Of a stretch of 64,000 nt of DNA, positions 1,275 through 63,256 are shown piece by piece. The notes below the pieces were generated by a model. It saw only the letters and a program-made list of their open reading frames with translations. It had not been told where the DNA came from and made no database searches. Position 1 is the first letter of the stretch. Every line of letters begins with the position of its first letter. The DNA comes from a phage. The translations under genes and the position numbers were made by a program. Location: NCBI GenBank assembly GCA_026188615.1, contig GCA_026188615.1_4525.1; one strand, given 5' to 3'.

Positions 1275-1472
1275 ATGTTTAAACTTCCATCGTTAATCAA
1301 CGCTATTAAAGGCAATAAAAAGAAAACTGCTATCGCTGCAATAGTTGTAGGTGGCATTATTTCATGGAACTTCGGGATTGCACCATTGTTAGTTGCCCAT
1401 GGTATTATAGTTCCTTCTGTTCCATTGGATACTGTAGTTGATTTGGCCTTTGCTATTATAGGGCTTGTTTAA
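1275..1472 (+). CDS. small hydrophobic protein (65 aa), opposite strand
   Basis: Plus-strand ORF in the 56-61 gap; ATG preceded by AAGGAG at 7 nt; two predicted TM stretches; stop overlaps gene 61 stop convergently. Confidence 0.45.
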   Translation: MFKLPSLINAIKGNKKKTAIAAIVVGGIISWNFGIAPLLVAHGIIVPSVPLDTVVDLAFAIIGLV

Positions 1473-2491: not shown

Positions 2492-2530
2492 AGTATTCTC
2501 CAGAGGCCTTAAATTAATAAGGCCATCATA

Positions 2531-3025
2531 TCACAACTTATTAATATTTACTTTAATTCGCTTTCTTTTCTTGGAAGGAATTTGTTCGGGACCTTTATTT
2601 ACGACTGCACCTGTAGTTGTTCCTGATGCAATAGCTTGAGGACTACTGCCTGAATCACCAGCAACCATATCCTCAAATAAAGGGAGTTCTTTAAATATTT
2701 CTTTCTGTTGTTCTTCAGTAATGTTATAGCGTGAAGCTACAGCACTCCAAGCGGACATCATTGAGGCCATTCCATTAAGACCCGGAACAGTGCTCATCAT
2801 TCGCTTCATTGAACGAACTGAAGCATGAAAAGGTGTATAAGCCGCTTTCTCTTCGGGAGTAGAAGGACGTTTAAGAACACTTCCACGTTCATCGATGATT
2901 TTGGCTTCGTACGCTTTCCATTCTGTAAAAGGTTTTTGCATTAGTCGAATAAACTTATATGCATAAACTGAATCTATTGCAGTGTTAATAATACCCATAG
3001 GTACCTCCTGAGTATATTTAATCAA
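2531..3025 (-). CDS. hypothetical protein (61.1-like position)
   Basis: 164-aa ORF, synteny only. Confidence 0.5.
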   Translation of the reverse strand: MIKYTQEVPMGIINTAIDSVYAYKFIRLMQKPFTEWKAYEAKIIDERGSVLKRPSTPEEKAAYTPFHASVRSMKRMMSTVPGLNGMASMMSAWSAVASRYNITEEQQKEIFKELPLFEDMVAGDSGSSPQAIASGTTTGAVVNKGPEQIPSKKRKRIKVNINKL

Positions 3026-3215
3026 TCACAAAGATCGCTTTATCACCGTTCGCATCTGTGACTTCATATGTAGTGTCTTCGTAGTGTGGAATATTCCAAA
3101 TTACACCGTCATTAGCTTTTACACTAATATGGCATTGGTGTTTTGAAACAACTTCATAATCTTCAAAACTTGTAAAAACACTAATTTTAGAACCAGTGCA
3201 AATTGCAGTAGTCAT
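3018..3215 (-). CDS. hypothetical protein
   Basis: 65-aa ORF, tight spacing to neighbours. Confidence 0.4.
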   Translation of the reverse strand: MTTAICTGSKISVFTSFEDYEVVSKHQCHISVKANDGVIWNIPHYEDTTYEVTDANGDKAIFVID

Positions 3216-3216
3216 T

Positions 3217-3876
3217 TTAACCTCGATTCATAAATGCATTAAATATTTGGTCATCAACAGAAATTTCTAATTCAACTTCAATTGCTTCAGCCTTTTCTTC
3301 AGGTGGTAATTCATATCCACACACTACAATTTTTTCATCGATATCAAAATATACAGAAGCAATACGATTAATGTTACTTTCAGTTAAGTCTAAATCAACA
3401 TCAACATCTTTTTGACCTACACTTAAAGGATAACTAATACGGGTTATTTTATTATCTTTAACAAAGAGACCACCAACATACTCTGTACTACGTTTGAAGT
3501 TTACACGTTTCCGAATTGAAAGATATGATGCATCTTTACCATGAGCTCGGCTCATAGGACATAATGAATAGCTAGAATAAGAGATGTCAAATCCTACACC
3601 TTCAATATGAGCCAACGTGTCATGATTAAACCAATTATAATCATATGCCAAATCCATTATATTGTAATATGTGAAAGGCACAGGATTAACATCATATGTT
3701 GTACCTTTAAAATCTGCCCAGGCAACGATTTCGTTATCTTTAACAATTACAAAAATTACACCAATATGGTATCCGTTATTATTTTCATTCGGCGTTATAT
3801 TATAACATTGTGCATTAGGAAATTTACCATATTTAAATGGCGCATTTTTGTGCATATAATAAATCATATTATTCAC
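3217..3876 (-). CDS. hypothetical protein (61.2-like position)
   Basis: 219-aa ORF; no motif recognised. Confidence 0.5.
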   Translation of the reverse strand: MNNMIYYMHKNAPFKYGKFPNAQCYNITPNENNNGYHIGVIFVIVKDNEIVAWADFKGTTYDVNPVPFTYYNIMDLAYDYNWFNHDTLAHIEGVGFDISYSSYSLCPMSRAHGKDASYLSIRKRVNFKRSTEYVGGLFVKDNKITRISYPLSVGQKDVDVDLDLTESNINRIASVYFDIDEKIVVCGYELPPEEKAEAIEVELEISVDDQIFNAFMNRG

Positions 3877-4162
3877 CTGTGATTTCGGTTACGATATCTT
3901 TGTTATCGAAATTAGGGTCACAATACAAAACATAGTTGTACTGCATGATACCGCCAGACTTAAGTTGTTCAACAACTTTATTAACCATATTAGGACGGTC
4001 TCGTTTAGTGATGTTCATGATATCAGAGAAGATTTGTTGTTCAACATCTTCTTGATTTGCAGTCATTGACCACTCACAGAGGTCTTTATCATAACCTGCC
4101 GTAACTGGAGCCGGTGCACATGATACTGCAAGTAAGATTGCTGCCAATGATAACTTTTTCAT
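3869..4162 (-). CDS. sp: spackle periplasmic protein Sp (61.3)
   Basis: 97 aa; signal peptide then GYDKDLCEWSMTA...KSGGxMQYNYVLYCD matches T4 Sp; RBS AAGGAG. Confidence 0.9.
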   Translation of the reverse strand: MKKLSLAAILLAVSCAPAPVTAGYDKDLCEWSMTANQEDVEQQIFSDIMNITKRDRPNMVNKVVEQLKSGGIMQYNYVLYCDPNFDNKDIVTEITGE

Positions 4163-4191
4163 TTTAACTCCTTAGTTGATTTGATAGGACT

Positions 4192-4221
4192 ACTATACTA
4201 TAGTCCATCTATAATGTAAAC
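4192..4221 (-). promoter_or_regulatory. T4-early-type promoter (GTTTAC -35, TATAGT -10)
   Basis: GTTTAC-N18-TATAGT upstream of sp; dyad symmetry flanks -10. Confidence 0.6.
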
Positions 4222-9267: not shown

Positions 9268-9816
9268 TTAACGAGCCCATTTGATAATTTCTGTAATCAA
9301 ATAATTACGTTCGCTTGCATTAAATCCTATAACTTTGTTAGCACCATCATGATTAAGTAATTGATACGTTTGGATTTTGTTATGAATTGCAAACTCTTCA
9401 AAATGTGAAATGGCTGTATTAAAACCGAATGAAGACAAAGTAATAAGGTCGTCTTCAAAACTTTCAGTCATTTCGTTACGTGTTAAAATAATTGTGAACA
9501 CATCATGGTTTTGGCAAAGACGAATATAATCCTGTTCATAAACGTCAAGAACCGAGTCCGCATCTTGTCGAATACGTCCATAAACCCAGTTACTAATATA
9601 TCCACGGTCTAACAGATAAATCTTAGTAGGGTCTAAATAATTCAACATCGTTTCGAAACAGCCAACTTCATTTCGAGACTTAACATCGAAACGTCCATCA
9701 ACTGTTCGTTTAGGGAAATCAATCTTTACATATCTTTCACTAATTTCCATTATGTCATTAATGAAAGTTGTTTTACCGGCATTATCCGGGCCATCTACTA
9801 AAATAATTTTAGCCAT
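9268..9816 (-). CDS. P-loop kinase-like protein (thymidylate-kinase-like Walker A)
   Basis: 182 aa; IILVDGPDNAGKTT and DRGYIS motifs; occupies the T4 beta-gt locus together with 9818..10717. Confidence 0.6.
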   Translation of the reverse strand: MAKIILVDGPDNAGKTTFINDIMEISERYVKIDFPKRTVDGRFDVKSRNEVGCFETMLNYLDPTKIYLLDRGYISNWVYGRIRQDADSVLDVYEQDYIRLCQNHDVFTIILTRNEMTESFEDDLITLSSFGFNTAISHFEEFAIHNKIQTYQLLNHDGANKVIGFNASERNYLITEIIKWAR

Positions 9817-9817
9817 T

Positions 9818-10717
9818 TTATTCCTCGATTACGACATCTTCGTATTTAGGTATATTATACGGCGAAGAAATTAAAGCATTAAAGTAGATGAACTCACCAA
9901 GACCTGGATGGAATACTTCTTCAGGATTTTCGAAATATTGAATCTTCGGACGTCCTTTAAGAATTTGATAGTACTCAGTTTTAGTTGGTTTAAAAATTCG
10001 AATCAGCGCTTCTTCAGGATACTTATTTCTGTCGAAGCTATTATTTGGATCGGTTATATAAAGCGGTTGGCCTAATTGAATTGCACATTCAACCACTTGT
10101 TCAAAACGATAGCACGGGTCACTAATTCGAAATGGATGAAAAATACCATCTAGATGAATAGGAGCCAAATCACCTACAAGACGCTGCATGATGGAAGGAC
10201 GTATAACTTTCTGAGTTACGATAATCTTATTACCATCTGCACCTGCGTTAACCAGCACTTCTTTTTGACGTTCATTCAACACAGTAGTTTGAAGTGAACT
10301 ATTAACTGACAACATATCGGTTTTTAAGAATTCGTCAATATAAAAACGTGGTTTATTAGGGTCTGCCGTGATATTGAAATTGAATTCTACATCAAAAGCG
10401 CCGTCATAACCAGTGATATCTGTTATTAGAAAATCACAATCATAATAAGCAATTAATGAATCAACCACAAATTCATTTTCAGACCAGAAATATTTACGAG
10501 TGTTATACGCGTTATCTTTATACCATAATGGAACAAACTTAAATTCTGGGAAAAGACGTTCACATTCTTTAATATCAGATGCATTACGTGGATATGTAAT
10601 CACATCACCTGGATTAGCACGGTGCAAATGAAGTTGGAAGTTGCCATCCTTAAGGATAGCATACTGTCCAGTTTCATAAGACCGCATACTCAAGATAGGT
10701 ACGCGGAAAATAGCCAT
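9818..10717 (-). CDS. hypothetical protein (299 aa) in place of beta-glucosyltransferase
   Basis: No recognisable motif; TAATG stop/start overlap with gene 42, 1-nt gap to downstream kinase-like gene. Confidence 0.6.
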   Translation of the reverse strand: MAIFRVPILSMRSYETGQYAILKDGNFQLHLHRANPGDVITYPRNASDIKECERLFPEFKFVPLWYKDNAYNTRKYFWSENEFVVDSLIAYYDCDFLITDITGYDGAFDVEFNFNITADPNKPRFYIDEFLKTDMLSVNSSLQTTVLNERQKEVLVNAGADGNKIIVTQKVIRPSIMQRLVGDLAPIHLDGIFHPFRISDPCYRFEQVVECAIQLGQPLYITDPNNSFDRNKYPEEALIRIFKPTKTEYYQILKGRPKIQYFENPEEVFHPGLGEFIYFNALISSPYNIPKYEDVVIEE

Positions 10718-11433
10718 TAGTCAAGGAATCCTTTAACATAATCAAAATCACGTTCAAACACATGGGCACTTACCATGGTATGAGTATAATCACCAACTTC
10801 TACACCGCATTCGTTAGCGATATAATGAAGTAATTTTCCTTGGAGATAAAAATCCAACTGCATAACAACAGCACAGTTCTGAGAACGCATATGGCAGTGG
10901 GTATAAAGCTTACCATCACGAATATAATAAGTCACTGAGTCAGTACATGGATATTCAAGCGTTTCGTCTGAATCAAGCAAAGCCTGATCAGAACTTTCTA
11001 GAATTTGGAACACAACTCTTCGGGAGTTAGGCTTCTCTTTAAGTTCTTTTAGAAGAGCTGGTAATTGGGCCGCAATGCGAGGACCATAGAAAGTGTTGAA
11101 GTTCGCCGGCAAAACATCTGATTTTGGTTTAGAAATAAATTTAGCGACATTAGGATATGCCTTAAACGCTTCTTCTGCGTTGGTACCACCAGAAATCATA
11201 AACTTCCAGAAGTCTTCGGCATATTCATAAGAGATGCGGTTAATACGTGGGTCGGTCATTTTGAATGATGATGGAGTGTCAACAACTACTGTCATAGACC
11301 CAATTTCATTACAACGTCCAATACGAGAATCAGTTACGAATTCCGGGTTTTCTAAAATTTCACGATTGACTGCTTTAAATGCGGTTTGAAAATCTGCGGC
11401 TTTGATATATTTCATTGTGTTATGTTTTCCCAT
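10717..11433 (-). CDS. 42: thymidylate-synthase-family dCMP hydroxymethylase (gp42-like)
   Basis: 238 aa; SRRVV, YPCTDSVTYYIRDG, HMRSQN and QLDF align to T4 gp42 NPDSRRGIM / FMCTNTVQYLIRD / NMRSND / RNDY motifs. Confidence 0.75.
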   Translation of the reverse strand: MGKHNTMKYIKAADFQTAFKAVNREILENPEFVTDSRIGRCNEIGSMTVVVDTPSSFKMTDPRINRISYEYAEDFWKFMISGGTNAEEAFKAYPNVAKFISKPKSDVLPANFNTFYGPRIAAQLPALLKELKEKPNSRRVVFQILESSDQALLDSDETLEYPCTDSVTYYIRDGKLYTHCHMRSQNCAVVMQLDFYLQGKLLHYIANECGVEVGDYTHTMVSAHVFERDFDYVKGFLD

Positions 11434-11452
11434 GTTTACCTCAATACAATTT

Positions 11453-11476
11453 ATTATATACTCAATTCATAAAGCT
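11453..11476 (-). promoter_or_regulatory. middle-promoter-like element (AGCTTTA box + TATAAT)
   Basis: MotA-like box 11 nt upstream of TATAAT, ~20 nt upstream of gene 42 ATG. Confidence 0.4.
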
Positions 11477-11715
11477 TATTTGAATTTCTTGGCAATGTTG
11501 ATATAACGTAAAGCTTCAGAATCTATACTTCCAAGAACACTATGAAGGAATGCATCAGTGTAGTATTCCAATTGAACAGGTTCTTTAATCACTTTAGCCG
11601 CTTTGGTTTCAAACAGGCCCATAAGGGCCTTTTTAAGAATTTGTTCGTTAGTGTTCAGTTTCATAGTCAAAATCTCTTCGTTAAGTTTATAATTAAAACT
11701 TTTTCTAGAAATCAT
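11476..11715 (-). CDS. hypothetical protein (79 aa)
   Basis: ATGA start/stop overlap with upstream 386-aa gene; soluble, no motif. Confidence 0.5.
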   Translation of the reverse strand: MISRKSFNYKLNEEILTMKLNTNEQILKKALMGLFETKAAKVIKEPVQLEYYTDAFLHSVLGSIDSEALRYINIAKKFK

Positions 11716-12872
11716 TCCGGGTACCTCAAAGCGTCATCAGAGTTAGTTATATCAATAATAGATATGGAGTTTTCTGCTAACCCGTTTTTAGATAATTGAC
11801 GTTTATAATACCTTTCACAATATGTACACGTTGACCCACAGATTTCATTAGCACAATCAAAATCTGGATGTCTGAACCACCTTTTTTCTAAAAAGCCATC
11901 TAACAAAGAGGTTTCAATATTTACTGTATGTGAAAACTCAGTCTCATTTTCAAGAGTGAAAATAGTCTCTAAAGGCTTCCACAGTTCTAACAAATTACCT
12001 TCAAACTTTTCAGAAGCGTATGCTTCAAGAACTTTCAAAATGTAGTCTGTGCTACCTGTACGTCCTGAAACTTTGAATTGAGTGATACCAATATCATTAT
12101 AAAGTTTCAAATCTTGAGGACGAACAAAACGAGTTCTCAACCAGTTAAATGGGTCTGTATCACGAGCTTTAATACAGTGCTGCATTGGATATCCGTTTAA
12201 GGATTTAGCATCATCAGCTGTAACATCAGTACTATGGAAAATATAGCAAGAGTCACGATAGCTACAATGTGTTGTATACCCTTTACCAGCATTAGAACAG
12301 AACTCATTTACAAGAACTTCAAATATTATATTGTTCTTATTGCAAAACTCTGCTGCACGCTTCAGGAAAGAAACTGAACGGTTCTTATGAATTCCACAGC
12401 AGACCTTTTTGATATTATATTGGTCATGCAAGTATTTGATTTGAGTTACAGCATCGACATGTAGAATTGTTGAAACTTCAATCTCAATGTCTTTATTGAC
12501 TTCACGAACAATTTCCATAACAACAGGGTTAGCGATAGTAATACGCCATACGCCTATTGACCAAAGATACTGAACATAATCCTGAATAGCTTTCTTCTTC
12601 CACTCAACTAGTTCTCTTTTTGAACCAGGATTTATCGTGTTGAGTGTATAGTTAAAGCAAATACCTAATTCGTTACAACGTTTAACGTAGTCTTCTAACA
12701 TCTTTTTGTCAACGTCAGGAAGCCTAAAATCAGGTCTGGCTGCTACAAAAGCCATTTCTCTTGTAGAGCCGTATACTTCGTTTATCAAGCTATTAGGATA
12801 AGTTTTATTGAGCTCTACGATTTTATCAAGAAGAGCTAAATCAAAATTCGTTCCGATTTTAAAAGTATTCAT
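11712..12872 (-). CDS. Cys-rich hypothetical enzyme (386 aa)
   Basis: Multiple Cys clusters (KVCCGIH; NEFCSN...HCSYRDSC; C-terminal CANEICGSTCTYC); weak resemblance to Fe-S/TIM-barrel enzymes, not assignable. Confidence 0.55.
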   Translation of the reverse strand: MNTFKIGTNFDLALLDKIVELNKTYPNSLINEVYGSTREMAFVAARPDFRLPDVDKKMLEDYVKRCNELGICFNYTLNTINPGSKRELVEWKKKAIQDYVQYLWSIGVWRITIANPVVMEIVREVNKDIEIEVSTILHVDAVTQIKYLHDQYNIKKVCCGIHKNRSVSFLKRAAEFCNKNNIIFEVLVNEFCSNAGKGYTTHCSYRDSCYIFHSTDVTADDAKSLNGYPMQHCIKARDTDPFNWLRTRFVRPQDLKLYNDIGITQFKVSGRTGSTDYILKVLEAYASEKFEGNLLELWKPLETIFTLENETEFSHTVNIETSLLDGFLEKRWFRHPDFDCANEICGSTCTYCERYYKRQLSKNGLAENSISIIDITNSDDALRYPE

Positions 12873-12928
12873 TTTTTTGCATCTCGCGTTAATTGATGCG
12901 ATGGTTTTTGCAGGTCTTACTTAAATTA

Positions 12929-13330
12929 TTATAGATTCGGTTTATATGATTTAAATGTTTCGAATTCGCCTTTATTCATAAGAGCTTTGAATTCGTCAGG
13001 ACGCATAGCTTTGTCGTCGATAATCCAATCATATACTGGTTTATGTGTTAGCAAATTATGGTACTTCAAACCAATGTTTTCCAAGTTCTGAATCAGACTT
13101 GGGAGAATGTCAATTGCTATACGACCAGGACCTACTGACTTCATACCACGAGCAGTGTAAAGCGTTATGGTATGCCCTGCATCATACAGGGCATTAATGG
13201 CAGACACCATTTCGACGTCTGGTTTGAAGTTCACGTAATCACGATTGTTATTCCATTCCGTGATGCAATCATCGACATCAAAACAAAGATTAAGCATGTT
13301 TTCTACACGGTGCATTAGATTCGTTCCCAT
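12929..13330 (-). CDS. HAD-superfamily phosphatase (KdsC-like small sugar-phosphate phosphatase)
   Basis: 133 aa; motif I FDVDDCIT, motif II ITLYTAR, motif IV WIIDDK; 16-nt overlap with upstream gene. Confidence 0.65.
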   Translation of the reverse strand: MGTNLMHRVENMLNLCFDVDDCITEWNNNRDYVNFKPDVEMVSAINALYDAGHTITLYTARGMKSVGPGRIAIDILPSLIQNLENIGLKYHNLLTHKPVYDWIIDDKAMRPDEFKALMNKGEFETFKSYKPNL

Positions 13331-15000
13331 TGATGAGTGATATCGCCACCGATTGGACGATAGGAAACACCAGTTTCTTTATCAGTTAGTACCCATTTAC
13401 CCGGATTTTTTGTAATCAGAGTAGCCGTTACAGGTTCTGCTACGTCATAACTAATAGAGCCGTCTTGAAGTACACGGCCCATGTTACGTAATTGCTTAGT
13501 CAGAAGTTCCATACCTTTATAATATGCGGCTACCGCTTTAAGTGGATTATTCTTGAAATAACCACCTAATGCAATCCAGATAATTGCTACAGCCAAATGA
13601 TGATACTCGTTAAACGAACTCATCTTTCCATATTTGTAAACTAATGGATTGATGTTAATAGTCACATTACAAGTTGTTTCATCAATAGTAAACTGTCCCC
13701 AGGCCGGATTAGCATTGAATTCATCATAACCTGAAACAGCATAAAGCACTTTAGCTTCATCATATAATTTTGGCCCGTAAATCTTGGTTTCGCCAAAATA
13801 TCCACGAGGGTCGATAAACTTGACTTCACCGTTATCAGTAATCATAGTATTACTGAAGTTCGGGTCACCATGAATAACAGAGTACTGTCCCTGAGAACGA
13901 TTATGATAACGAATAAGGTGTTCTAAAGCTTGTTTCAGCATTGGCTTCAGACGTCCAATCTTAGTGTAGTTCACATGTGTGATTTTACCAAATGAATCAA
14001 TCAATGGTTGAATGCTTTCACAACGATCAATAACTTTCGTATAGAATTCTTTAGTGAAATCACGACGAACAGTTTCAGGACTTACAAAATAAGTGTCTGT
14101 GCTGAATTTCAGTGCATCTAAAATTGCATCAACAATTTGTGGACGAGCAAGACTTGATTTGGATTTAATATATTCAAATGCCGGCTTACCTTTAATGCGT
14201 TCCATTTCAAAATTATTTTCATTAACAGAAACTAACTGAGGAACTGAATCTGATTTCACTTTAAGATACCATGAAATCTCATCTTTCTGAAGAGCTCGAC
14301 CCTGTTCGGTTAATGCGAATTTAGTTACAGTTTCTTCACCAATTTCAACTGCATTAAAACTACGGTTCAGTTCACGAACTTCATGAGCTTTTTCAAGTTT
14401 AGGCATATCACCTAAATCAATTAGATTCATAAGCTCTGATTTATTGAATGCGCTACCGTAAAGGAATTCTACGAAATCACGTCCTTTGCAGTATTCATGA
14501 ATTTCTTCATCGGTGGAACCCATATAGAATTCCCAGTCTTTGAACTGATAAATTCCTACAACATTACCACCTGTTGAACCTACGTTAGTGATATTTTCAC
14601 CGTCGAAATTATATCGACATTCGTCACCCTTAACATAGATTGCGTTAACATTCCAAGACCATGAACCAAAATCCGGAATAATATCACACCAGTTAACAAT
14701 TACATTATGGCCGTCTAAATCTTTGTGTAATTTAGCAAGAGCATAAGCAGAACCATACGCTTCATCAACTGTACGAATAGTCACATTGAACCCTTCTTGC
14801 TCACAATAAGCTCGAACAGTTTCAGCAAATTTTGAATGAACTACTACAATAATTTCATCTGCGCCAAGGTCAGAATAAATTGTATACAAATTGCTCAGAA
14901 TAGTGTCTTGTTTATAGTTAACAAGCACCTTAGGAATATGATGCGTTATTGGATACAAACGAGTTGCCAGTCCAGCACCAAGAATAACAGCTTTTTTCAT
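13315..15000 (-). CDS. bifunctional sugar-1-phosphate nucleotidyltransferase / APH-type sugar kinase
   Basis: 561 aa; N-terminus KKAVILGAGLATRLYPIT (RmlA/GalU-type G-x-G-T-R-x-x-P-x-T); C-terminal VIHGDPNFSN...KFIDPRGYFG (aminoglycoside/choline-kinase-like). Confidence 0.7.
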   Translation of the reverse strand: MKKAVILGAGLATRLYPITHHIPKVLVNYKQDTILSNLYTIYSDLGADEIIVVVHSKFAETVRAYCEQEGFNVTIRTVDEAYGSAYALAKLHKDLDGHNVIVNWCDIIPDFGSWSWNVNAIYVKGDECRYNFDGENITNVGSTGGNVVGIYQFKDWEFYMGSTDEEIHEYCKGRDFVEFLYGSAFNKSELMNLIDLGDMPKLEKAHEVRELNRSFNAVEIGEETVTKFALTEQGRALQKDEISWYLKVKSDSVPQLVSVNENNFEMERIKGKPAFEYIKSKSSLARPQIVDAILDALKFSTDTYFVSPETVRRDFTKEFYTKVIDRCESIQPLIDSFGKITHVNYTKIGRLKPMLKQALEHLIRYHNRSQGQYSVIHGDPNFSNTMITDNGEVKFIDPRGYFGETKIYGPKLYDEAKVLYAVSGYDEFNANPAWGQFTIDETTCNVTININPLVYKYGKMSSFNEYHHLAVAIIWIALGGYFKNNPLKAVAAYYKGMELLTKQLRNMGRVLQDGSISYDVAEPVTATLITKNPGKWVLTDKETGVSYRPIGGDITHQWERI

Positions 15001-15041
15001 GTTGAAGTCCTCATTGGTAAGTAGGAGTATTGTACACTATT

Positions 15042-15185
15042 CTAGTTAAAGCATTCATACTTTGCTTGTAGTCCAATCATAATCCATCCAATTACAAGTG
15101 TTGGAATCATTACTGGAGCCGTTAAGCTCCAGTAGATAGTCATGACAAGCATCAATAGTAAAAGTCCTATTGTTATTGCTTTCAT
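15042..15185 (-). CDS. small hydrophobic peptide (47 aa), not in ORF track
   Basis: MKAITIGLLLLMLVMTIYWSLTAPVMIPTLVIGWIMIGLQAKYECFN; its ATG overlaps the TGA of the SIS gene (ATGA); ends 42 nt before the nucleotidyltransferase start. Confidence 0.5.
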   Translation of the reverse strand: MKAITIGLLLLMLVMTIYWSLTAPVMIPTLVIGWIMIGLQAKYECFN

Positions 15186-15817
15186 TGTTCGCCTCGTAAC
15201 ATGGCACCTAGTGCACCGCCTGGATGGAACTTAAGGAAATCATTAGAGGTAAATCCGCGTTCAGACGAAAGGTTGATAGCGAACGTATCGATAAGCGCTA
15301 ACAACAATGTAGTAGACATTGTCGGAGCTAAAGAGTTCTCGTCAACTTCTACTGCGATGCCTGTACAGAAAGAGTAATCAAAAAGGGCTTCATTTTCTTG
15401 TGGAATGTCTGGGTTACAATGCAACAGAATCTGTTTGACGTTCGGTCGAATCATTTTAAGATGCTTAGCCACGCCTATCATTTCTTCAGTTTTACCAGAA
15501 CGACTAATATGAATCAACACGTCATTAGGCGCAATAAATCCTGCATCACCGTGAGAATAATGTCCAGTGTTCAAGTACATACTCGGGATACCGAGTGAAG
15601 CAAATGTCTCAGAAGCTTTAGTTGCAATATTAGCATTCTTACCAACACCTGTAATAATTACTCGGCTTTCATAATTACTAAGTCCCGGGCGTCGAAGAGT
15701 TTCTAGAATAGCATTATAACGAGCAGGGTTTTGACTAATTACTTTGGCCATAGCGGCCAAAGAAGAAGCTTGTTTTATGATTGCGTCAATAGCGATAGTA
15801 ATAGGAGTAGTTTTCAT
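15182..15817 (-). CDS. SIS-domain sugar-phosphate isomerase (KdsD/GutQ arabinose-5-phosphate isomerase-like, no CBS domains)
   Basis: 211 aa; GVGKNANIATKASETFASLG and FHPGGALG motifs typical of SIS isomerases. Confidence 0.7.
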   Translation of the reverse strand: MKTTPITIAIDAIIKQASSLAAMAKVISQNPARYNAILETLRRPGLSNYESRVIITGVGKNANIATKASETFASLGIPSMYLNTGHYSHGDAGFIAPNDVLIHISRSGKTEEMIGVAKHLKMIRPNVKQILLHCNPDIPQENEALFDYSFCTGIAVEVDENSLAPTMSTTLLLALIDTFAINLSSERGFTSNDFLKFHPGGALGAMLRGEQ

Positions 15818-48725: not shown

Positions 48726-48806
48726 TTAGTTTCTCTTAAGGTTTGGGCCATTCCGTGGCACATGAATTGTCCATTTCTGTATTTACCCCTCCAAGTAATT
48801 ATGAAT

Positions 48807-48836
48807 ATACTATCACAATTCTAGGAGAAAGTAAAC
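48807..48836 (-). promoter_or_regulatory. early-type promoter
   Basis: GTTTAC-N18-TAGTAT upstream of ORF 48186..48725. Confidence 0.45.
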
Positions 48837-48838
48837 TG

Positions 48839-49141
48839 TTATTTACCTTTAATTACTTTAGCTGCTTCGATAGCCGCTTGCTGAAGGTCATCCATAGACA
48901 TACCGAATTTAGAAGCAAAGTTATCAATTTTCTTTTCGACAGCATTCAAAGGCTTGGCCTGTTTACCTTCATTAGCGCCAGGAAGAGCGAGAATACGCTC
49001 TTTGTCAATATAAAGGCTTACAAGTTTCTTACGGTCTTTATCGGACAAATCATGAAATGAATGGGCCTTTTTATTTATAGCGGCTTCTAATTTACCTGCA
49101 CTCACTCGCGCTTCAGTAATAAATTCTTGATATGTTTTCAT
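48839..49141 (-). CDS. internal (capsid-packaged) protein with capsid targeting sequence, IPII-like
   Basis: 100 aa; N-terminal CTS MKTYQEFITEA; own early promoter. Confidence 0.75.
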   Translation of the reverse strand: MKTYQEFITEARVSAGKLEAAINKKAHSFHDLSDKDRKKLVSLYIDKERILALPGANEGKQAKPLNAVEKKIDNFASKFGMSMDDLQQAAIEAAKVIKGK

Positions 49142-49174
49142 TTTTTTTGTTTCCTTGTTTGTTTTGATAGAGTA

Positions 49175-49204
49175 ATTATACCATATTAATACTTAAGCGT
49201 AAAC
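49175..49204 (-). promoter_or_regulatory. early promoter (GTTTAC-N18-TATAAT)
   Basis: Upstream of internal protein gene 48839..49141. Confidence 0.65.
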
Positions 49205-49207
49205 AAT

Positions 49208-49468
49208 TTAAGCTTTACCGCCAGAAATAATTCCGAAATTGTTAAAATCATATCCAATATCGTCAACATCTACTTTAGGACTTGCTACAACATAAGCAAT
49301 TTCACTACGTTTTGCATAGGTGTTGATTTCTTTACCATCGCCACCTAAGAAAGAATACCCATTACGTTTTAATGAGCCAAAGTCTTCCGCATCACCAATG
49401 AAAGCTTTAACTTTAAATTTAGGACCTTTGGCATCAGCTTCAGTGATAAATTCTTGATACATTTTCAT
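49208..49468 (-). CDS. internal protein with capsid targeting sequence
   Basis: 86 aa; N-terminal MKMYQEFITEA. Confidence 0.7.
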   Translation of the reverse strand: MKMYQEFITEADAKGPKFKVKAFIGDAEDFGSLKRNGYSFLGGDGKEINTYAKRSEIAYVVASPKVDVDDIGYDFNNFGIISGGKA

Positions 49469-49474
49469 TTTTCC

Positions 49475-49888
49475 TTAGTAAATTGATTTACCATAGTATT
49501 TGTACCAAGTCGGACGTTGAGCAATTTTTTCATCTAAGCGTGCTTGACTTATCGCAATGGACTCTTCGGACGGGACGTAATTATTACGAAATTCGGCAGG
49601 GATGTCGGAAATATCCTGGACAGTCGTGTCCTTGATTTTGAAACCACGTTTCAAGCATTCAGCGATTAGCTCGATTTGTCGTAAACGTAAAAATTCGAGT
49701 TTGTCGTAAAAGAATGTTACGTGACCTGTGCCTAAGATAAATGTTGGAGAGATTTTAAAATCCTTTACACGTTTACCGTTTTGAACATGTTTACGGACTG
49801 CACCGAATACACGAGGTAATTCACGATACTCAGCCATAAGATGTTGGTCGGCCAGTTCAGAAACAAGTGTTAAATTGATACGGGTCAT
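49475..49888 (-). CDS. denV: endonuclease V (pyrimidine dimer DNA glycosylase) DenV
   Basis: Internal [37 protein letters not shown]... matches T4 EndoV. Confidence 0.93.
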
Positions 49889-49915
49889 AATTTCCTCCAA
49901 GTAGTTGATAGATGT

Positions 49916-49945
49916 ATAGTATCAAAGTCCTTGGAGGAAGTAAAC
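49916..49945 (-). promoter_or_regulatory. early-type promoter upstream of denV
   Basis: GTTTAC-N18-TACTAT. Confidence 0.5.
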
Positions 49946-49946
49946 A

Positions 49947-50228
49947 CTATTTTTCTGAAGCGCCTGAAATATATTTTTCAAGACGTTGTTTCATTAACGA
50001 GCCGTTCTTAGCGATTTCTTCCGGTTTATCGCACATACGTAACAAGGCTTCAAGCTTAGCGATATCGCTGGTACGTTCAAATTTGCGAGTATCTATCTTA
50101 CTAGCAAGTTCAGAAATACGTGCTAATAGACTTTCCGCTTCAACCAAAGCTGCACCTAGCTTAGTTGCAAATGTGTCAGTAGCTTCGTTAAGAATAGATT
50201 CTGATAAAAATTCACTATATGTTTTCAT
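49947..50228 (-). CDS. internal protein with capsid targeting sequence (IPIII-like position)
   Basis: Internal [14 protein letters not shown]; its ATG overlaps the TGA of gene e (ATGA). Confidence 0.65.
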
Positions 50229-50713
50229 ATATACGCTTTCCAAGTTCCTGTTTTAAATGTTGAGATTACGCGTTTTGCGCGATTAGGTGTCTGACGATAC
50301 CATTTAGATTGGGCTAGATTTACTGCCGCTTCGTCCCAACGTTTCTGTTGAAGCATACGAAGAGAATTAGTAAAACCGGCGACGCCTGCTACACCCATTT
50401 GGAAGACCATATTGACCAATGCACATCGACGAACTGCATCTAAAGAATCATATACCGGTTTAAGTTTAGCATTACCCAAGATTCCGCGAACGGCTTTATC
50501 AACGTCTTCATTAAATAGCTTTTCAGCCTCATCAAGGGTAATTGTACCGTTGCATTTACGACCGATCATTCTGTCAAGTTCAGCTTTAGCTACGGCTAAA
50601 GACGGGTTCTTTGTTACCAAATGGCCTATGCCAATCGTCCAAAAGCCTTCAGTGTCTTTGTATAAAGTCAGTCTAAGACCTTCGTCATTACGAAGCATTT
50701 CAAATATATTCAT
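50225..50713 (-). CDS. e: lysozyme (endolysin) e
   Basis: [23 protein letters not shown]..TIGIGHL...RCALxNMVFQMG..[25 protein letters not shown] matches T4 lysozyme. Confidence 0.97.
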
Positions 50714-50747
50714 AATACCTCCCACGTTTATAGGAGGTATTTATTAC

Positions 50748-58315: not shown

Positions 58316-58711
58316 TTATTTTGGCATATCATCAATTTGCTCTCGACGCCGACGCCATAGATTAATCGCTTCATTAACACATTCGGCGTTTGGTATATGA
58401 CGGCAATAATATAATGATTCGCGTTTCTGGAACCGATGTTGCAATGGGATTTCGTTTAAAAGGTCTTTACGGTCAAAGTATTCAAAACTAGTTAACCCGG
58501 AACGGTTTTTAATGAACTTCCAATGACCGAATTCATTTTGAACATAGATGTAATCGGCATGCTGATACAGCGAATTAATCAATCGATGAGAAATAACTGT
58601 ATCATATTCGTTAAAATAAAACGTTAAATCATGAACTACCAGATAAATATTGCCTTTCATATTTTCCTCACTTAAAGTTGGTGCCTCTAGAAAGATTTGA
58701 ACTCTCACCAT
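58316..58711 (-). CDS. hypothetical protein (start uncertain)
   Basis: 131-aa ORF; likely begins at internal MKGNIYLVVHDL. Confidence 0.45.
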   Translation of the reverse strand: MVRVQIFLEAPTLSEENMKGNIYLVVHDLTFYFNEYDTVISHRLINSLYQHADYIYVQNEFGHWKFIKNRSGLTSFEYFDRKDLLNEIPLQHRFQKRESLYYCRHIPNAECVNEAINLWRRRREQIDDMPK

Positions 58712-58739
58712 TAACCTTAGAATGATTATATGCTATCCA

Positions 58740-59405
58740 TTACACTATAGAGGCAATTAAATTATTTACAATATCTTCTTTATAAACTTCAGCATAATGA
58801 AGTTCATATATTTCCCATCCTAATGATTTTATAATATCATGGCGTTCTTTATAATAAGGGGCCAAAATCTTTTTCTTAGGATTGGAGTAATGTTGGTTTC
58901 CATTAACTTCAATAATAATCTTTTTATCTATTAAAGCAATATCCGTGCAATACGCTCGGTTTTTAACCGGTTGGTATTCTTCAATAAATGAAATTCCATT
59001 TTCTATTAATTTAGATTTCAAAAATTCACAAGGCACAGATTTAAATTTTGTATTTTTCTTCCAAGGATGTTTATCGGGGTTTTCATTCAACCATTTTTTC
59101 CGAGCATTAGATATTTTTATTCTAGCTTCCTCAGAGTGTTCTCTACCTAATGAAGCGGCTGACAATTTTTGTCTAGTCTCTTCCGAAATTACTACAGGAA
59201 CACCAGTCTTTTTAGATACAACATACTGGTTTAAATTACCTGAAGCTATACGTGCTTTATTCATTGCTGCAATGGCTGATTTAGAACTTTCTTTATACAA
59301 TTCCAATTTAGGGTTGGATTTACACCATCTAGTGTGGTTAGCCATCCATCCTTTAGGTTTATTAGAAATATCAAATTCCATATTACAATGTTTACAAATG
59401 CTCAT
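58740..59405 (-). CDS. putative endonuclease (Zn finger, NUMOD3-like helix, C-terminal Vsr/DUF559-like PD-(D/E)xK domain)
   Basis: Track ORF starts on TTG; ATG MSICKHCN...; C-terminal IIEVNGNQHY...ERHDIIKSLGWEIYEL; sits beside the tRNA genes. Confidence 0.5.
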   Translation of the reverse strand: MSICKHCNMEFDISNKPKGWMANHTRWCKSNPKLELYKESSKSAIAAMNKARIASGNLNQYVVSKKTGVPVVISEETRQKLSAASLGREHSEEARIKISNARKKWLNENPDKHPWKKNTKFKSVPCEFLKSKLIENGISFIEEYQPVKNRAYCTDIALIDKKIIIEVNGNQHYSNPKKKILAPYYKERHDIIKSLGWEIYELHYAEVYKEDIVNNLIASIV

Positions 59406-59415
59406 TACCAATTAT

Positions 59416-59434
59416 CTCCTATAAAATATAGGAG
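59416..59434 (-). promoter_or_regulatory. hairpin sequestering the Shine-Dalgarno of the endonuclease gene
   Basis: Perfect 8-bp inverted repeat CTCCTATA/TATAGGAG; the AGGAG RBS lies in the 3' arm, ~10 nt upstream of ATG at 59405. Confidence 0.45.
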
Positions 59435-59479
59435 TATTTATTATTTGGATAGAGCACTTAATTTACTTCGTTTAAATTA

Positions 59480-59551
59480 CTGGCGCACTTGGACTCGAAC
59501 CAAGATAAAGAAGTTAACAGCTCCCCGTAATAACCTTTATACGATGCACCA
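59480..59551 (-). tRNA. tRNA-Asn (anticodon GUU)
   Basis: Cloverleaf folded by hand: U1-A71 7-bp acceptor, D loop with GG, anticodon loop CUGUUAA, T arm CTTGG-TTCGAGT-CCAAG; no encoded CCA. Confidence 0.7.
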
Positions 59552-59557
59552 TTTGTT

Positions 59558-59632
59558 TGGTGACCCTGGCTGGTTTCGATCCAGCTACCTATCAGTTATG
59601 AGCTGACAGCTCTCCCATTGAGCTACAGGGCC
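59558..59632 (-). tRNA. tRNA with CAU anticodon (Met or Ile2-type), CCA encoded
   Basis: Acceptor GGCCCTG/CAGGGTC, D stem GCTC/GAGC, anticodon loop CUCAUAA, T arm GCTGG-ATCGAAA-CCAGC, 3' ACCA. Confidence 0.7.
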
Positions 59633-61089: not shown

Positions 61090-61105
61090 TTGATTTGATA
61101 GGACT

Positions 61106-61135
61106 ACTATAACATATCCCTATAGGCTTGTATAC
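61106..61135 (-). promoter_or_regulatory. early-type promoter
   Basis: GTATAC-N18-TATAGT. Confidence 0.45.
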
Positions 61136-61137
61136 CT

Positions 61138-61401
61138 TTATTTCAAATATATTGCGTATTTTTTATAGCCACCAGGCTCGTGTCGAAGACCTTTATCATT
61201 CGCAAAACGTTGAATGTTATTGAACTGGTTTTCATCAAGTTCGGATGTGTCAAATATAAAAAAGTTTCGTTTGTTACCAAGCGTGATATGCGGAGTTAAG
61301 TCAATGTTATACAAATTAAGAATATCAGCAATAACCTGATTAACCGCTTTGTTAATTTTCACGCCAGACGATTCTGAGATGAATTCATTGAAAGTTTTCA
61401 T
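61138..61401 (-). CDS. internal protein with capsid targeting sequence
   Basis: CTS MKTFNEFISES at internal Met of track ORF 61138..61413. Confidence 0.6.
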   Translation of the reverse strand: MKTFNEFISESSGVKINKAVNQVIADILNLYNIDLTPHITLGNKRNFFIFDTSELDENQFNNIQRFANDKGLRHEPGGYKKYAIYLK

Positions 61402-61433
61402 TTTAGGTTCCATTTGGTTGTTTTGATAGGACT

Positions 61434-61463
61434 ACTATAGCATAGTCCTATCGTGTTTTAAAC
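61434..61463 (-). promoter_or_regulatory. early-type promoter upstream of internal protein gene
   Basis: GTTTAA-N18-TATAGT. Confidence 0.5.
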
Positions 61464-61466
61464 TAC

Positions 61467-61754
61467 TTACAGAAGAGTTTTTGCAATAATTTTAAGCTGA
61501 GCTACAGAAATATGCTTAGCTTTAAACAGTGCAGTCTCTTCAGCCGGAGAGATAACAATAGTAGCGCCATCTTTCTTAGCAGACCATCCATCCCCTAAGT
61601 AAACAGTACCTTTTACTTCTTCGCCGTCAACCAGACTAATCATTGGTTTACCCTCACGTCCTTTATTTGCTTTAATAACTTCAGAAGTAAGGGTTGCTTC
61701 GGTCAGAGTAGAAACGTTAGCAACAGGTGATATAAATTCTTTATAGGTTTTCAT
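61467..61754 (-). CDS. internal protein with capsid targeting sequence (IPI-like position)
   Basis: 95 aa; N-terminal MKTYKEFIS; adjacent to 57B as ipI is in T4. Confidence 0.65.
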   Translation of the reverse strand: MKTYKEFISPVANVSTLTEATLTSEVIKANKGREGKPMISLVDGEEVKGTVYLGDGWSAKKDGATIVISPAEETALFKAKHISVAQLKIIAKTLL

Positions 61755-61788
61755 TTTATTTCCTTGAGGCTGTTTATTTGATAGGATG

Positions 61789-61818
61789 ATAGTATCACAC
61801 CATCTTCCTTATGTAAAC
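61789..61818 (-). promoter_or_regulatory. early-type promoter upstream of internal protein gene
   Basis: GTTTAC-N18-TACTAT. Confidence 0.5.
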
Positions 61819-61831
61819 TGTTTTGTGAAAA

Positions 61832-62517
<686 letters not shown>

Positions 62518-62521
62518 TTTA

Positions 62522-63256
62522 TTACCTTAAGATTTTTTCAATTTTAGAATAAAGCTCTTCTAACGAGCCGTCGTTTGTAATAACTAAGTCGCCTTCTTCA
62601 ATAGGCAACCCAGCTTCTGTAATATGTTTATCAGTGGATTCCGTACCAGAGCGAACCACATGAATAACTGTAGCACCCATCGCTCTAGCGGTTTCCATTT
62701 CATGGACTTGGCGTGTATCGGTCACAACGTAGTAATCGAAATCACTTCCAATATAATCCATATAGTTTAATGCAAAAAGCTTAACCCAATACATACGGTC
62801 AAATAAATTAACGACAACATCCGTACCGAGGGCTTGCATAAGACGGCGGATTGACCATGTGTCGTTGATATTATTTATAGCTTCACGCAGGGCTTCATAC
62901 GGTTTAATATCTAGATATGAATACCCACCTTCTAATGATGATAATACTTTAACATTATTAATTGGCAAATATTGACTTTGTAAATAAATTAGCGCTTCTT
63001 CCAATAATTCAATAACATCCAACTTATTGAGATTTAATGGTGTTTCACGGTCGTATCCAATGCCTTCAAAGTATTCGTATTTCAACTCTGTGAATACATC
63101 AGGATTTTCAGCATGCCAAAATTGCCACGCTGTTGCTAGAGCGTCTTTAATTGGATATGCTAATTGGTATTTTACGGATTTAAAGTTTGAATTGATGTAA
63201 TCAGCAGTAGTGTCTTTACCACTACGTTTGATGCCACTTAAAAAGATTAGCTCCAT
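62522..63256 (-). CDS. 1: deoxynucleoside monophosphate kinase gp1
   Basis: 244 aa; IFLSGxKRSGKDTTAD, WSIRRLMQALGTD, MGATVIHVVR, ITNDGSLEEL match T4 gp1. Confidence 0.93.
   Translation of the reverse strand: MELIFLSGIKRSGKDTTADYINSNFKSVKYQLAYPIKDALATAWQFWHAENPDVFTELKYEYFEGIGYDRETPLNLNKLDVIELLEEALIYLQSQYLPINNVKVLSSLEGGYSYLDIKPYEALREAINNINDTWSIRRLMQALGTDVVVNLFDRMYWVKLFALNYMDYIGSDFDYYVVTDTRQVHEMETARAMGATVIHVVRSGTESTDKHITEAGLPIEEGDLVITNDGSLEELYSKIEKILR

What the first reader, a model, noticed from the sequence alone, without database searches (positions are those of the whole stretch)
48839..50228. Three capsid-targeting-sequence internal protein genes around denV, two more at 61138-61754
Five small ORFs begin with the conserved T4 internal-protein CTS ([53 protein letters not shown]) but have unrelated bodies. 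In T4 such proteins are packaged and injected with the DNA, and IPI blocks a type IV restriction enzyme, so these are candidate injected anti-defence effectors. One is translationally coupled to lysozyme (ATGA).
Basis: partly seen in the sequence, partly recalled or inferred. Interest (0 to 1): 0.55.

Follow-up and report, generated by a model that had tools for sequence, protein, structure and literature searches.

The report
Known T4-type injected internal protein genes
These are five real but already catalogued "internal protein" genes of an RB69-like (Mosigvirus) T-even phage; such proteins are packed into the head and injected with the DNA to disarm host restriction enzymes, so the finding is correct but ordinary.

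Summary
Exactly five minus-strand ORFs in the 64-kb window start with the T4 capsid-targeting sequence (CTS). They score 31-36 bits on a CTS matrix, and the next best ORF scores 2.7. Shuffled sequence gives 0.003 such ORFs on average.

The window is a Mosigvirus, 96-98% identical to Shf125875, JS09 and KAW3E185. It also carries the arabinosyl-cytosine DNA-modification cluster.

- **IP-E** (61467-61754) is 100% identical to RB69 IPI. Its mature part matches T4 IPI* (PDB 2JUB) at 72 of 76 residues.
- **IP-A** (48839-49141) is 93% identical to T4 IPII.
- **IP-C** (49947-50228) is a diverged Ip5 (48% identity).
- **IP-D** (61138-61401) belongs to the Ip9 family (about 72% identity).
- **IP-B** (49208-49468) belongs to the RB69ORF125c family.

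All five fall in PHROG families annotated as internal head or virion proteins, and RefSeq annotates their homologues the same way. Each has the aromatic-4 and Phe-7 targeting residues and an (I/L)-x-E site for the gp21 protease. The ATGA overlap with lysozyme is real.

The anti-defence reading matches published work: T4 Ip1, Ip2 and Ip3 each block a distinct GmrSD type IV enzyme (Silas 2025). The targets of IP-B, IP-C and IP-D remain unknown. Verdict: supported, already known, low interest.

The parts
48839..49141 (-). IP-A, the IPII/Ip2 orthologue (100 aa). CTS is MKTYQEFITE|A. The predicted mature form is 90 aa with pI 9.7.
   Evidence: 93% identical to T4 IPII. phrog_7857 'internal virion protein', E 4.5e-55. 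Annotated 'IpII' in Shf125875.
49208..49468 (-). IP-B, RB69ORF125c-family internal protein (86 aa). CTS is MKMYQEFITE|A. The predicted mature form is 76 aa with pI 6.4. Its target is unknown.
   Evidence: phrog_2667/35655. Found in 218 phage records, with 100% identity in phage JoYop. RefSeq calls it 'internal head protein'. Distant CTS-bearing relatives are P0035, P0036, P0038 and P0040.
49475..49888 (-). denV (endonuclease V). It is not an internal protein; it is embedded between IP-B and IP-C.
   Evidence: 91% identical to T4 DenV.
49947..50228 (-). IP-C, a diverged Ip5 / RB69ORF127c-family internal protein (93 aa). CTS is [10 protein letters not shown]|S. Further L/I-x-E sites end at residues 15, 30 and 40.
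   Evidence: 48% identity to RB32 Ip5, E 2e-24. phrog_3499, E 2e-46. 100% identical in Shf125875, CEV1, LF82-1 and JK45. The RB32 annotation links Ip5 to RB69ORF127c.
50225..50713 (-). Lysozyme e. Its TGA stop overlaps the ATG of IP-C (ATGA at 50225-50228).
   Evidence: Sequence. 83% identical to T4 e. Homologues are annotated with the same 4-nt overlap.
61138..61401 (-). IP-D, Ip9-family internal protein (87 aa). CTS is MKTFNEFISE|S. The predicted mature form is 77 aa with pI 9.0 and an alpha-beta-beta-alpha-beta-beta fold.
   Evidence: 71-72% identity to RB15/RB32 Ip9. phrog_7673, E 7e-49. AF2 pLDDT 84.9, with the CTS region disordered.
61467..61754 (-). IP-E, the IPI orthologue (95 aa). It has a long 19-residue propeptide, MKTYKEFISPVANVSTLTE|A, and a 76-aa mature IPI*.
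   Evidence: 100% identical to RB69 IPI. Residues 20-95 match all 76 residues of PDB 2JUB (72 of 76 identical, E 6e-42). Pfam PF11634 IPI_T4, E 1.3e-50, profile positions 1-76.
49175..49203 (-). Early (sigma-70-type) promoter upstream of IP-A: TTTACG, 17-nt spacer, TG-TATAAT.
   Evidence: Consensus scan, 10 of 12 matches with an extended -10. Consensus only, not tested.
61418..61463 (-). PeSL-like element upstream of IP-D. It has an early-type promoter (TTTAAA, 17 nt, TATAGT) overlapping an 11-bp stem-loop (61425-61452). It is one copy of a 46-nt direct repeat.
   Evidence: Direct repeat with 61090-61135, 80% identity. Hairpin at -16.6 kcal/mol, z -6.2. It matches the PeSL description in PMC4122927.
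61090..61135 (-). Second copy of the 46-nt repeat, immediately downstream of IP-D. The two copies bracket the Ip9-type cassette.
   Evidence: The stem is weaker in this copy.
50714..50741 (-). 12-bp hairpin in the e leader that sequesters the e Shine-Dalgarno sequence (GGGAGG). It bears on when e, and the overlapping IP-C, are translated.
   Evidence: -16.3 kcal/mol, z -3.2. The link to late-only translation rests on my knowledge of T4 e and is an inference.
62872..62879 (-). Exact T4 late-promoter consensus TATAAATA inside gene 1. It lies upstream of 57A, 57B, IP-E and IP-D and is a possible source of late transcripts.
   Evidence: The window-wide count is not above chance (5 observed against 8.2 expected), so this is only a candidate.

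Best explanation
The five ORFs are the internal-protein (Ip) genes of a Mosigvirus (RB69-like T-even phage). They sit in the two classical hyperplastic ip loci: e to vs.8, and 57B to trna.4.

Proposed mechanism:
1. Each protein carries the N-terminal CTS, MKT(Y/F)xEF(I/L)x(E). Aromatic residue 4 and Phe7 dock the protein onto the scaffolding core while the prohead assembles. This is inferred from T4 IPIII genetics.
2. The gp21 prohead protease cuts after the Glu of (I/L)-x-E. That is after residue 10 in IP-A to IP-D and after residue 19 in IP-E. The cut releases the mature 76-90-aa proteins inside the head (inferred).
3. The proteins are ejected with the arabinosylated DNA at infection (inferred).
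4. In the cell they bind and block modification-dependent (type IV, GmrSD-family) nucleases.

How far each protein is supported:
- For IP-E, step 4 rests on 100% identity to RB69 IPI and 95% identity to T4 IPI*.
- For IP-A, it rests on 93% identity to T4 Ip2.
- For IP-B, IP-C (Ip5-like) and IP-D (Ip9-like), it is an extrapolation. They are most likely subtype-specific inhibitors of further restriction or defence variants.

The genes behave as cassettes. The conserved CTS-coding 5' ends and the repeated promoter/stem-loop (PeSL-type) elements give short homologies by which bodies can be swapped between phages.
For: - CTS and protease motif are present in all five and in no other ORF of the window.
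- Residue requirements come from PMC9026906. Positions 4 and 7 serve targeting, positions 8 and 10 serve processing, and gp21 cuts after L/I-x-E.
- IP-E is identical to RB69 IPI. Its residues 20-95 cover all 76 residues of 2JUB and the whole PF11634 profile, which puts the propeptide boundary at residue 19.
- Thomas 2018 (PMC6024577) states that RB69 DNA is cut by GmrSD and that RB69 IPI prevents this.
- IP-A is 93% identical to T4 IPII. Ip1, Ip2 and Ip3 each block one GmrSD subtype (PMC12373910).
- IP-C is homologous to Ip5 and IP-D to Ip9.
- All five fall in PHROGs annotated as internal head or virion proteins.
- Gene order matches the ip loci of T4, RB69, RB32 and PST.
- The repertoire differs among near-identical Mosigviruses. 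Mogra has an extra IpIII, SF has a different 103-aa IP where IPI sits, PhAPEC2 lacks the Ip9-type gene, and RB69 has six CTS genes and no IPII.
- The CTS-coding DNA is a 36-nt direct repeat, 92% identical between IP-A and IP-B. A 46-nt repeat brackets IP-D and contains a promoter plus a stable hairpin.
- The window carries the arabinosylation cluster (9268-15817, 97.5% identity to Shf125875). GmrSD/BrxU enzymes cleave arabinosylated DNA.
- The nearest relative encodes gp67, gp68, the gp21 protease, gp22 and gp23.
Against: - There is no direct evidence that these particular proteins are in virions, are cleaved or are injected. I found no Mosigvirus virion proteome in the paper library.
- gp21 and the scaffold genes lie outside the window.
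- Silas et al. tested ip4-10 from T4-like phages against 15 GmrSD groups and found no reproducible inhibition. A GmrSD target for the Ip5-like and Ip9-like proteins is therefore unproven. The window's alleles are only 48% and 72% identical to the named Ip5 and Ip9.
- Mature IP-B and IP-C are near-neutral (pI 6.4 and 6.3), unlike the basic T4 IPs.
- IP-C has three further L/I-x-E sites and could be cut into peptides.
- Apart from one exact TATAAATA inside the IP-A coding sequence, the only one near these genes lies inside gene 1. The window-wide count is not above chance.
Confidence: 0.85

Rival explanations
1. IP-B, IP-C and IP-D are packaged but are not defence inhibitors. They act as head-filling, DNA-counterion or core-assembly proteins, or they modulate host physiology in some other way, as the packaged Alt ADP-ribosyltransferase does.
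For: T4 IPs are abundant (about 1000 molecules per head) and their lysines contact DNA phosphates (PMC3012670). Mature IP-D is basic, with pI 9.0. ip4-10 showed no reproducible anti-GmrSD activity.
Against: Mature IP-B and IP-C are not basic (pI 6.4 and 6.3), so they are poor counterions. The presence/absence variation between near-identical phages fits accessory arms-race genes, not structural needs. All three T4 IPs turned out to be nuclease inhibitors.
Confidence: 0.15
2. Some of these proteins act mainly as newly synthesised early cytoplasmic proteins and not as injected ones. Under this reading the CTS is dispensable or vestigial for function.
For: Early-type promoters sit directly upstream of IP-A, IP-D and IP-E. 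T4 IPIII lacking its CTS, expressed in the host, still rescues infection of ECOR17 (PMC9391042). The RB69 record has a compensated frameshift that scrambles residues 5-12 of the ORF127c CTS.
Against: The CTS and the protease site are strictly kept in all five genes, while the bodies diverge freely. The CTS is also kept in the distant IP-B relatives. A nuclease that cuts incoming DNA must be blocked before any phage gene is expressed. The RB69 frameshift may be a sequencing error in a 2003 record.
Confidence: 0.1
3. The shared N-terminus is a chance or gene-calling artefact, and the ORFs are not genes.
For: None found.
Against: Five were observed against 0.003 expected. The score gap is 31-36 bits against 2.7 bits. 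The ORFs are conserved in hundreds of phage genomes. IP-E matches a solved structure.
Confidence: 0.01

Closest known systems
T4 / RB69 internal protein I (IPI, mature IPI*; Pfam PF11634; PDB 2JUB), inhibitor of the GmrSD type IV restriction enzyme of E. coli CT596
   Same: IP-E is 100% identical to RB69 IPI. Its mature part is identical to T4 IPI* at 72 of 76 residues. It sits in the same position downstream of 57B and has the same 19-residue propeptide ending (I/L)-T-E.
   Different: Nothing differs from RB69 IPI. It differs from T4 IPI* at four mature residues (V/I, V/A, Q/H, T/N). The phage DNA is arabosylated, not glucosylated: the window carries the arabinosylation cluster.
T4 internal protein II (Ip2), inhibitor of GmrSD-ECOR21/BrxU (Silas et al. 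2025, PMC12373910)
   Same: IP-A is 93% identical over all 100 residues, with the same CTS type and the same locus.
   Different: The gene order differs. T4 has e, ipIII, ipII, denV. The window has e, IP-C, denV, IP-B, IP-A. RB69 itself lacks IPII, so this cassette is variably present within the genus.
[not shown]
   Same: IP-C is homologous to Ip5 (48% identity, E 2e-24). IP-D is homologous to Ip9 (about 72% identity, with the C-terminal 35 residues nearly invariant). Both have the CTS. The Ip9-type gene is bracketed by direct repeats, as noted for RB32.
   Different: IP-C lies next to lysozyme e with an ATGA overlap, whereas Ip5 lies in the 57B-trna.4 locus. IP-C also has a short CTS with Glu10, unlike Ip5 (MKTFKEFATKTTITE). 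The function of Ip5 and Ip9 is unknown.
PeSL (early-promoter stem-loop) mobile regulatory cassettes of T4-type phages (Arbiol 2010, PMC2839356; Comeau 2014, PMC4122927)
   Same: Repeated intergenic elements combine a TTTAxx-N17-TAyAgT promoter with a stem-loop. They flank genes that vary between close relatives.
   Different: They are assigned by resemblance only. The stem sequences here (GATAGGACTA...TAGTCCTATC) are specific to this lineage.

Membership tests
T-even internal proteins (CTS-bearing Ip family) | N-terminal capsid-targeting sequence MKT(Y/F)xEF(I/L), with an aromatic residue at position 4 and Phe at position 7 (the targeting determinants) | tested here: met
   All five ORFs meet it and no other ORF in the window does. 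The requirement is taken from PMC9026906.
T-even internal proteins (CTS-bearing Ip family) | gp21 protease site (L/I)-x-E at the end of the propeptide (residues 8-10, or 17-19 in the IPI type) | tested here: met
   ITE10 in IP-A, ITE10 in IP-B, LSE10 in IP-C, ISE10 in IP-D and LTE19 in IP-E.
T-even internal proteins (CTS-bearing Ip family) | Location in the ip hyperplastic loci (between e and vs.8, and between 57B and trna.4) | tested here: met
   Gene order was compared with T4, RB69, RB32 and PST.
T-even internal proteins (CTS-bearing Ip family) | The phage encodes the T4-type prohead core (gp22, gp67, gp68) and the gp21 protease | tested here: inconclusive
   These genes lie outside the 64-kb window. 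They are present in Shf125875, which is 96-98% identical.
T-even internal proteins (CTS-bearing Ip family) | Physical presence in the virion, N-terminal processing and ejection into the host | not testable with these tools
   This needs virion proteomics. No Mosigvirus virion proteome was found in the paper library.
IPI_T4 (Pfam PF11634) | Full-length match of the mature protein to the IPI* domain or structure | tested here: met
   IP-E residues 20-95 match profile positions 1-76 (169.7 bits against a cut-off of 25) and 2JUB residues 1-76.
IPII / Ip2 | Full-length homology to T4 IPII | tested here: met
   93% identity over 100 aa. phrog_7857 positions 1-100 of 100.
Ip5 family | Sequence homology of the body to Ip5 of RB15, RB32 and PST | tested here: met
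   IP-C against RB32 Ip5: 48% identity over 84 aa, E 2e-24. It is a distant member of the family.
Ip9 family | Sequence homology of the body to Ip9 of RB15 and RB32 | tested here: met
   IP-D is 71-72% identical, and 33 columns are invariant in a 17-sequence alignment.
Inhibitors of GmrSD-family type IV restriction enzymes | Blocks a GmrSD nuclease in vivo or in vitro | not testable with these tools
   For IP-E this is inferred from identity to RB69 IPI. For IP-A it is inferred from 93% identity to T4 Ip2. There is no evidence for IP-B, IP-C or IP-D, and ip4-10 were negative on 15 GmrSD groups.
PeSL regulatory cassettes | An early-promoter consensus combined with a stem-loop, repeated in intergenic regions next to variable genes | tested here: met
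   The 46-nt repeat brackets IP-D. The upstream copy has a promoter with a 17-nt spacer and an 11-bp stem (z -6.2). The stem is weak in the downstream copy (z -0.7).

The most novel reading that the evidence does not exclude
At least one of the three uncharacterised proteins neutralises something other than the GmrSD subtypes already paired with Ip1, Ip2 and Ip3. The candidates are IP-B (RB69ORF125c family), IP-C (Ip5-like, overlapping lysozyme) and IP-D (Ip9-like). The target could be a nuclease specialised for arabinosylated cytosine DNA or a non-nuclease defence. This would extend the injected-effector repertoire of T-even phages beyond type IV restriction. A related point is that the Ip9 body also occurs as the C-terminal domain of a 755-aa Kuttervirus protein. 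This suggests that CTS fusion captures ready-made effector domains from other phages.
Probability: 0.3. Interest if true: 0.5.

Novelty: already known. Interest (0 to 1): 0.15.

Why it matters
Internal proteins are the first phage molecules to meet host immunity, and they help set the host range of T-even phages used in therapy. This window adds no new kind of element. It shows one more combination of known cassettes (Ip1, Ip2, Ip5-like, Ip9-like and an ORF125c type) in a phage with arabinosylated DNA. The practical value is limited to naming three small, well-defined candidates (IP-B, IP-C, IP-D) whose targets are still unknown. These could be screened against panels of type IV enzymes and other defences.

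Tried and rejected
- **Structure of IP-B.** The AlphaFold2 model from a 7-sequence alignment is unusable (pLDDT 40.7).
- **Sequence searches of solved structures.** Nothing was found for IP-A, IP-B, IP-C or IP-D at E below 0.06.
- **NCBIfam.** No family matched any of the five.
- **Pfam.** Only IPI_T4 matched, for IP-E. The weak DUF7412 hits (E 0.005-0.012, below the cut-off) start at residue 1 and probably reflect the shared CTS.
- **Exhaustive HMM search with the IP-B alignment.** It found only 10 proteins. Four are further CTS-bearing relatives. Two are long repeat proteins (P0039, P0041) that I regard as compositional or repeat matches.
- **Late promoters.** Apart from one exact TATAAATA inside the IP-A coding sequence (49072-49079), the nearest lies inside gene 1, and the window-wide count is below the shuffle mean. 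Late expression is therefore inferred, not shown.
- **Recent transfer of cassettes from T4-like phages.** IPII (93%) and IPI (88%) are more T4-like than nudE (63%) or gp1 (62%). The neighbours denV (91%), 57B (86%) and e (83%) are also high, so the signal is regional and not specific to the cassettes.
- **Literature gaps.** Repoila 1994, Bair 2007 and Rifat 2008 are not held in the library. No Mosigvirus virion proteome was found. One literature search returned only irrelevant hits.

Full report
**What is there.** On the minus strand the window has five small ORFs whose products start with the T4 capsid-targeting sequence:
- IP-A, 48839-49141, 100 aa.
- IP-B, 49208-49468, 86 aa.
- IP-C, 49947-50228, 93 aa.
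- IP-D, 61138-61401, 87 aa.
- IP-E, 61467-61754, 95 aa.

denV (49475-49888) lies between IP-B and IP-C. Lysozyme e (50225-50713) ends in a TGA that overlaps the IP-C ATG, giving ATGA at 50225-50228. A six-frame regex for K.[YF].EF[ILV] finds exactly these five sites, each preceded by Met. Shuffles give 0.003 Met-anchored matches on average. A CTS position matrix separates the five (30.9-36.3 bits) from every other Met-started ORF (2.7 bits or less).

**Which phage.** The region is 96-98% identical to many Mosigvirus (RB69-like) genomes, including Shf125875, JS09, KAW3E185, AV110 and the LF82 series. It is identical to none of them. The window also holds the Mosigvirus sugar-modification cluster between uvsX and DNA polymerase, at 9268-15817, 97.5% identical to Shf125875. 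The DNA is therefore expected to carry arabinosylated cytosines, not glucosyl-hmC (PMC6024577; PMC13390438).

**Identity of each protein.**
- **IP-E** is 100% identical to RB69 IPI and 88% identical to T4 IPI. Residues 20-95 align end to end with the 76-residue IPI* structure 2JUB (72 of 76 identical) and with the whole Pfam IPI_T4 profile (E 1.3e-50).
- **IP-A** is 93% identical to T4 IPII.
- **IP-C** is a diverged homologue of Ip5 (48% identity to RB32 Ip5, E 2e-24). The RB32 annotation already links Ip5 to RB69ORF127c.
- **IP-B** belongs to the RB69ORF125c family. That family occurs in 218 phage records and has a few distant CTS-bearing relatives.

All five fall in PHROG families annotated as internal head or virion proteins. 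RefSeq annotates their homologues in that way. Outside the CTS the five bodies are unrelated to one another, with 15-27% global identity.

**Fit to the defining features.** Mullaney and Black's work, as summarised in PMC9026906, showed that residues 4 and 7 of the CTS govern targeting. Residues 8 and 10 govern processing, and gp21 cuts after Glu in L/I-x-E. All five proteins have Tyr or Phe at position 4 and Phe at position 7. Four have (I/L)-x-E at residues 8-10. IP-E, like T4 IPI, has Pro or Thr at position 10 and L/I-T-E at residues 17-19. In the AlphaFold model of IP-D the CTS is the only low-confidence segment, which suits a flexible propeptide. The protease and scaffold genes are outside the window but are present in the nearest relative.

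**Mechanism.** The best-supported account is the textbook one. The CTS docks the protein onto the prohead core, gp21 removes the CTS, and the mature protein is packaged with the DNA. It is then injected and blocks modification-dependent nucleases before they cut the incoming genome.
- Shown elsewhere: IPI* inhibits GmrSD of CT596, and RB69 IPI protects RB69. T4 Ip2 and Ip3 inhibit GmrSD-ECOR21/BrxU and GmrSD-ECOR17 respectively, with no cross-protection. GmrSD-family enzymes cut arabinosylated DNA.
- Inferred here by orthology: IP-E and IP-A do the same.
- Extrapolated: IP-B, IP-C and IP-D are further subtype-specific inhibitors. Silas et al. tested ip4-10 against 15 GmrSD groups without reproducible hits, so their targets are open.
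- Mature IP-B and IP-C are near-neutral (pI 6.4 and 6.3), which argues against a simple DNA-counterion role.

**Cassette behaviour.** Closely related Mosigviruses differ in their Ip sets.
- RB69 has six CTS genes (ORF123c, 124c, 125c, 127c, 156c and ipI) and no IPII.
- Mogra has an added IpIII.
- SF has a different 103-aa IP where IPI sits.
- PhAPEC2 lacks the Ip9-type gene.
- Only KAW3E185 is collinear with the window across the IPI/Ip9 locus.

The CTS-coding DNA is itself a 36-nt direct repeat, 92% identical between IP-A and IP-B. A 46-nt repeat brackets IP-D. Its upstream copy holds a TTTAAA-N17-TATAGT promoter overlapping an 11-bp hairpin (-16.6 kcal/mol, z -6.2). [quoted passage not shown] The same CTS variants recur on different bodies. 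For example, MKMYQEFITEA occurs on IP-B here and on an Ip9 of Citrobacter phage Moon.

**Expression.** Early-type promoters precede IP-A, IP-D and IP-E. IP-C has no promoter of its own and overlaps e. The e leader forms a 12-bp hairpin that covers its Shine-Dalgarno sequence. In T4, to my knowledge, this arrangement limits e translation to late transcripts. Coupling would then time IP-C synthesis with head assembly. This is an inference. The ATGA overlap is a fact, but coupling is not demonstrated.

**Comparison and verdict.** The genes, their families, their annotation and the anti-defence concept are all published (Repoila 1994; PMC3012670; PMC9391042; PMC12373910). Novelty is 'already known' and interest is low. 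The open question is the targets of IP-B, IP-C and IP-D in a phage with arabinosylated DNA.

Noticed in passing
window 9268-15817: The Mosigvirus cytosine-arabinosylation / sugar-nucleotide gene cluster lies between uvsX and DNA polymerase. It includes homologues of RB69ORF045c-055c, among them a thymidylate-synthase-like gene, a phosphoheptose isomerase, ORF53_52c and an arabinose-5-phosphate isomerase. It is 97.5% identical to Shf125875. This implies arabinosylated DNA, not glucosyl-hmC DNA.
   Followed up: partly
window 49892-49939 (minus strand), upstream of denV: A strong hairpin (-19.2 kcal/mol, z -5.7) pairs CUUCCUCCAAG with CUUGGAGGAA(A). It sequesters the denV Shine-Dalgarno sequence, and an early-type promoter (GTTTAC...TACTAT) lies inside it. 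A related 31-nt copy (81% identical) lies downstream of IP-A at 48806-48836. This looks like promoter-dependent translational gating.
   Followed up: partly
L011 (RB69 NC_004928) 4126-4221, compared with window 50150-50245: The RB69 record has a 1-nt deletion after codon 4 of ORF127c and a 1-nt insertion 22 nt later. The pair scrambles CTS residues 5-12 (MKTYMNFYQNLSLNE against [15 protein letters not shown]). It is either a real loss of the canonical CTS in RB69 or an old sequencing error.
   Followed up: partly
window 61138-61401 (IP-D); L014 (Kuttervirus phage KFSST3, PP994976.1) 1301-3565: The Ip9-type body is homologous to the C-terminal 80 or so residues of a 755-aa hypothetical protein of an Ackermannviridae phage (32% identity, E 2e-12; phrog_7673 hit at 2.9e-8). 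It is also similar to a 535-aa viral protein in BFVD (28% identity, TM 0.78). An Ip body is therefore a domain used elsewhere without a CTS.
   Followed up: partly
protein P0029 ('ip7 protein', Escherichia phage OLB35), compared with window IP-D: This 77-aa protein has a different N-terminal half with no CTS, but its C-terminal 35 residues match IP-D almost exactly. That indicates mosaicism inside ip genes.
   Followed up: no
window 49947-50228 (IP-C): Besides LSE at residues 8-10, IP-C has three further gp21-type sites: LNE ending at residue 15, LVE at 30 and ISE at 40. The LNE site ending at residue 15 lines up with the ITE ending at residue 15 in Ip5. The true maturation site is therefore ambiguous, and the protein could be cut into peptides.
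   Followed up: no
window 61402-61413: An in-frame ATG four codons upstream (MEPK-MKTF...) precedes the IP-D start. The same MEPK extension is the annotated start of RB69 ipI. The upstream ATG has no Shine-Dalgarno sequence and a weak GGA precedes the MKT start, so the MKT start is more likely.
   Followed up: partly
window 48839-50713 and 61467-63256, compared with T4: Identity to T4 is uneven. IPII is 93%, denV 91%, IPI 88%, 57B 86% and e 83%, but nudE is 63% and gp1 is 62%. This suggests regional exchange with Tequatrovirus-like phages around the ip loci.
   Followed up: partly
window 58679-59632: There are only three tRNA genes (Arg-TCT, Asn-GTT, Met-CAT), against eight in T4 and two annotated in RB69. 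The tRNA island is therefore variable too.
   Followed up: no
proteins P0035, P0036, P0038 and P0040 (relatives of IP-B): The IP-B body has distant homologues that carry diverged CTSs (MKTYNEFIAEA, MQTFHEFLVEN, MKSFDQYIMES, MKTFQEFINEA). One of them is a 194-aa protein with an extra C-terminal half. The ORF125c-type family is therefore older and wider than the Mosigvirus genus.
   Followed up: no
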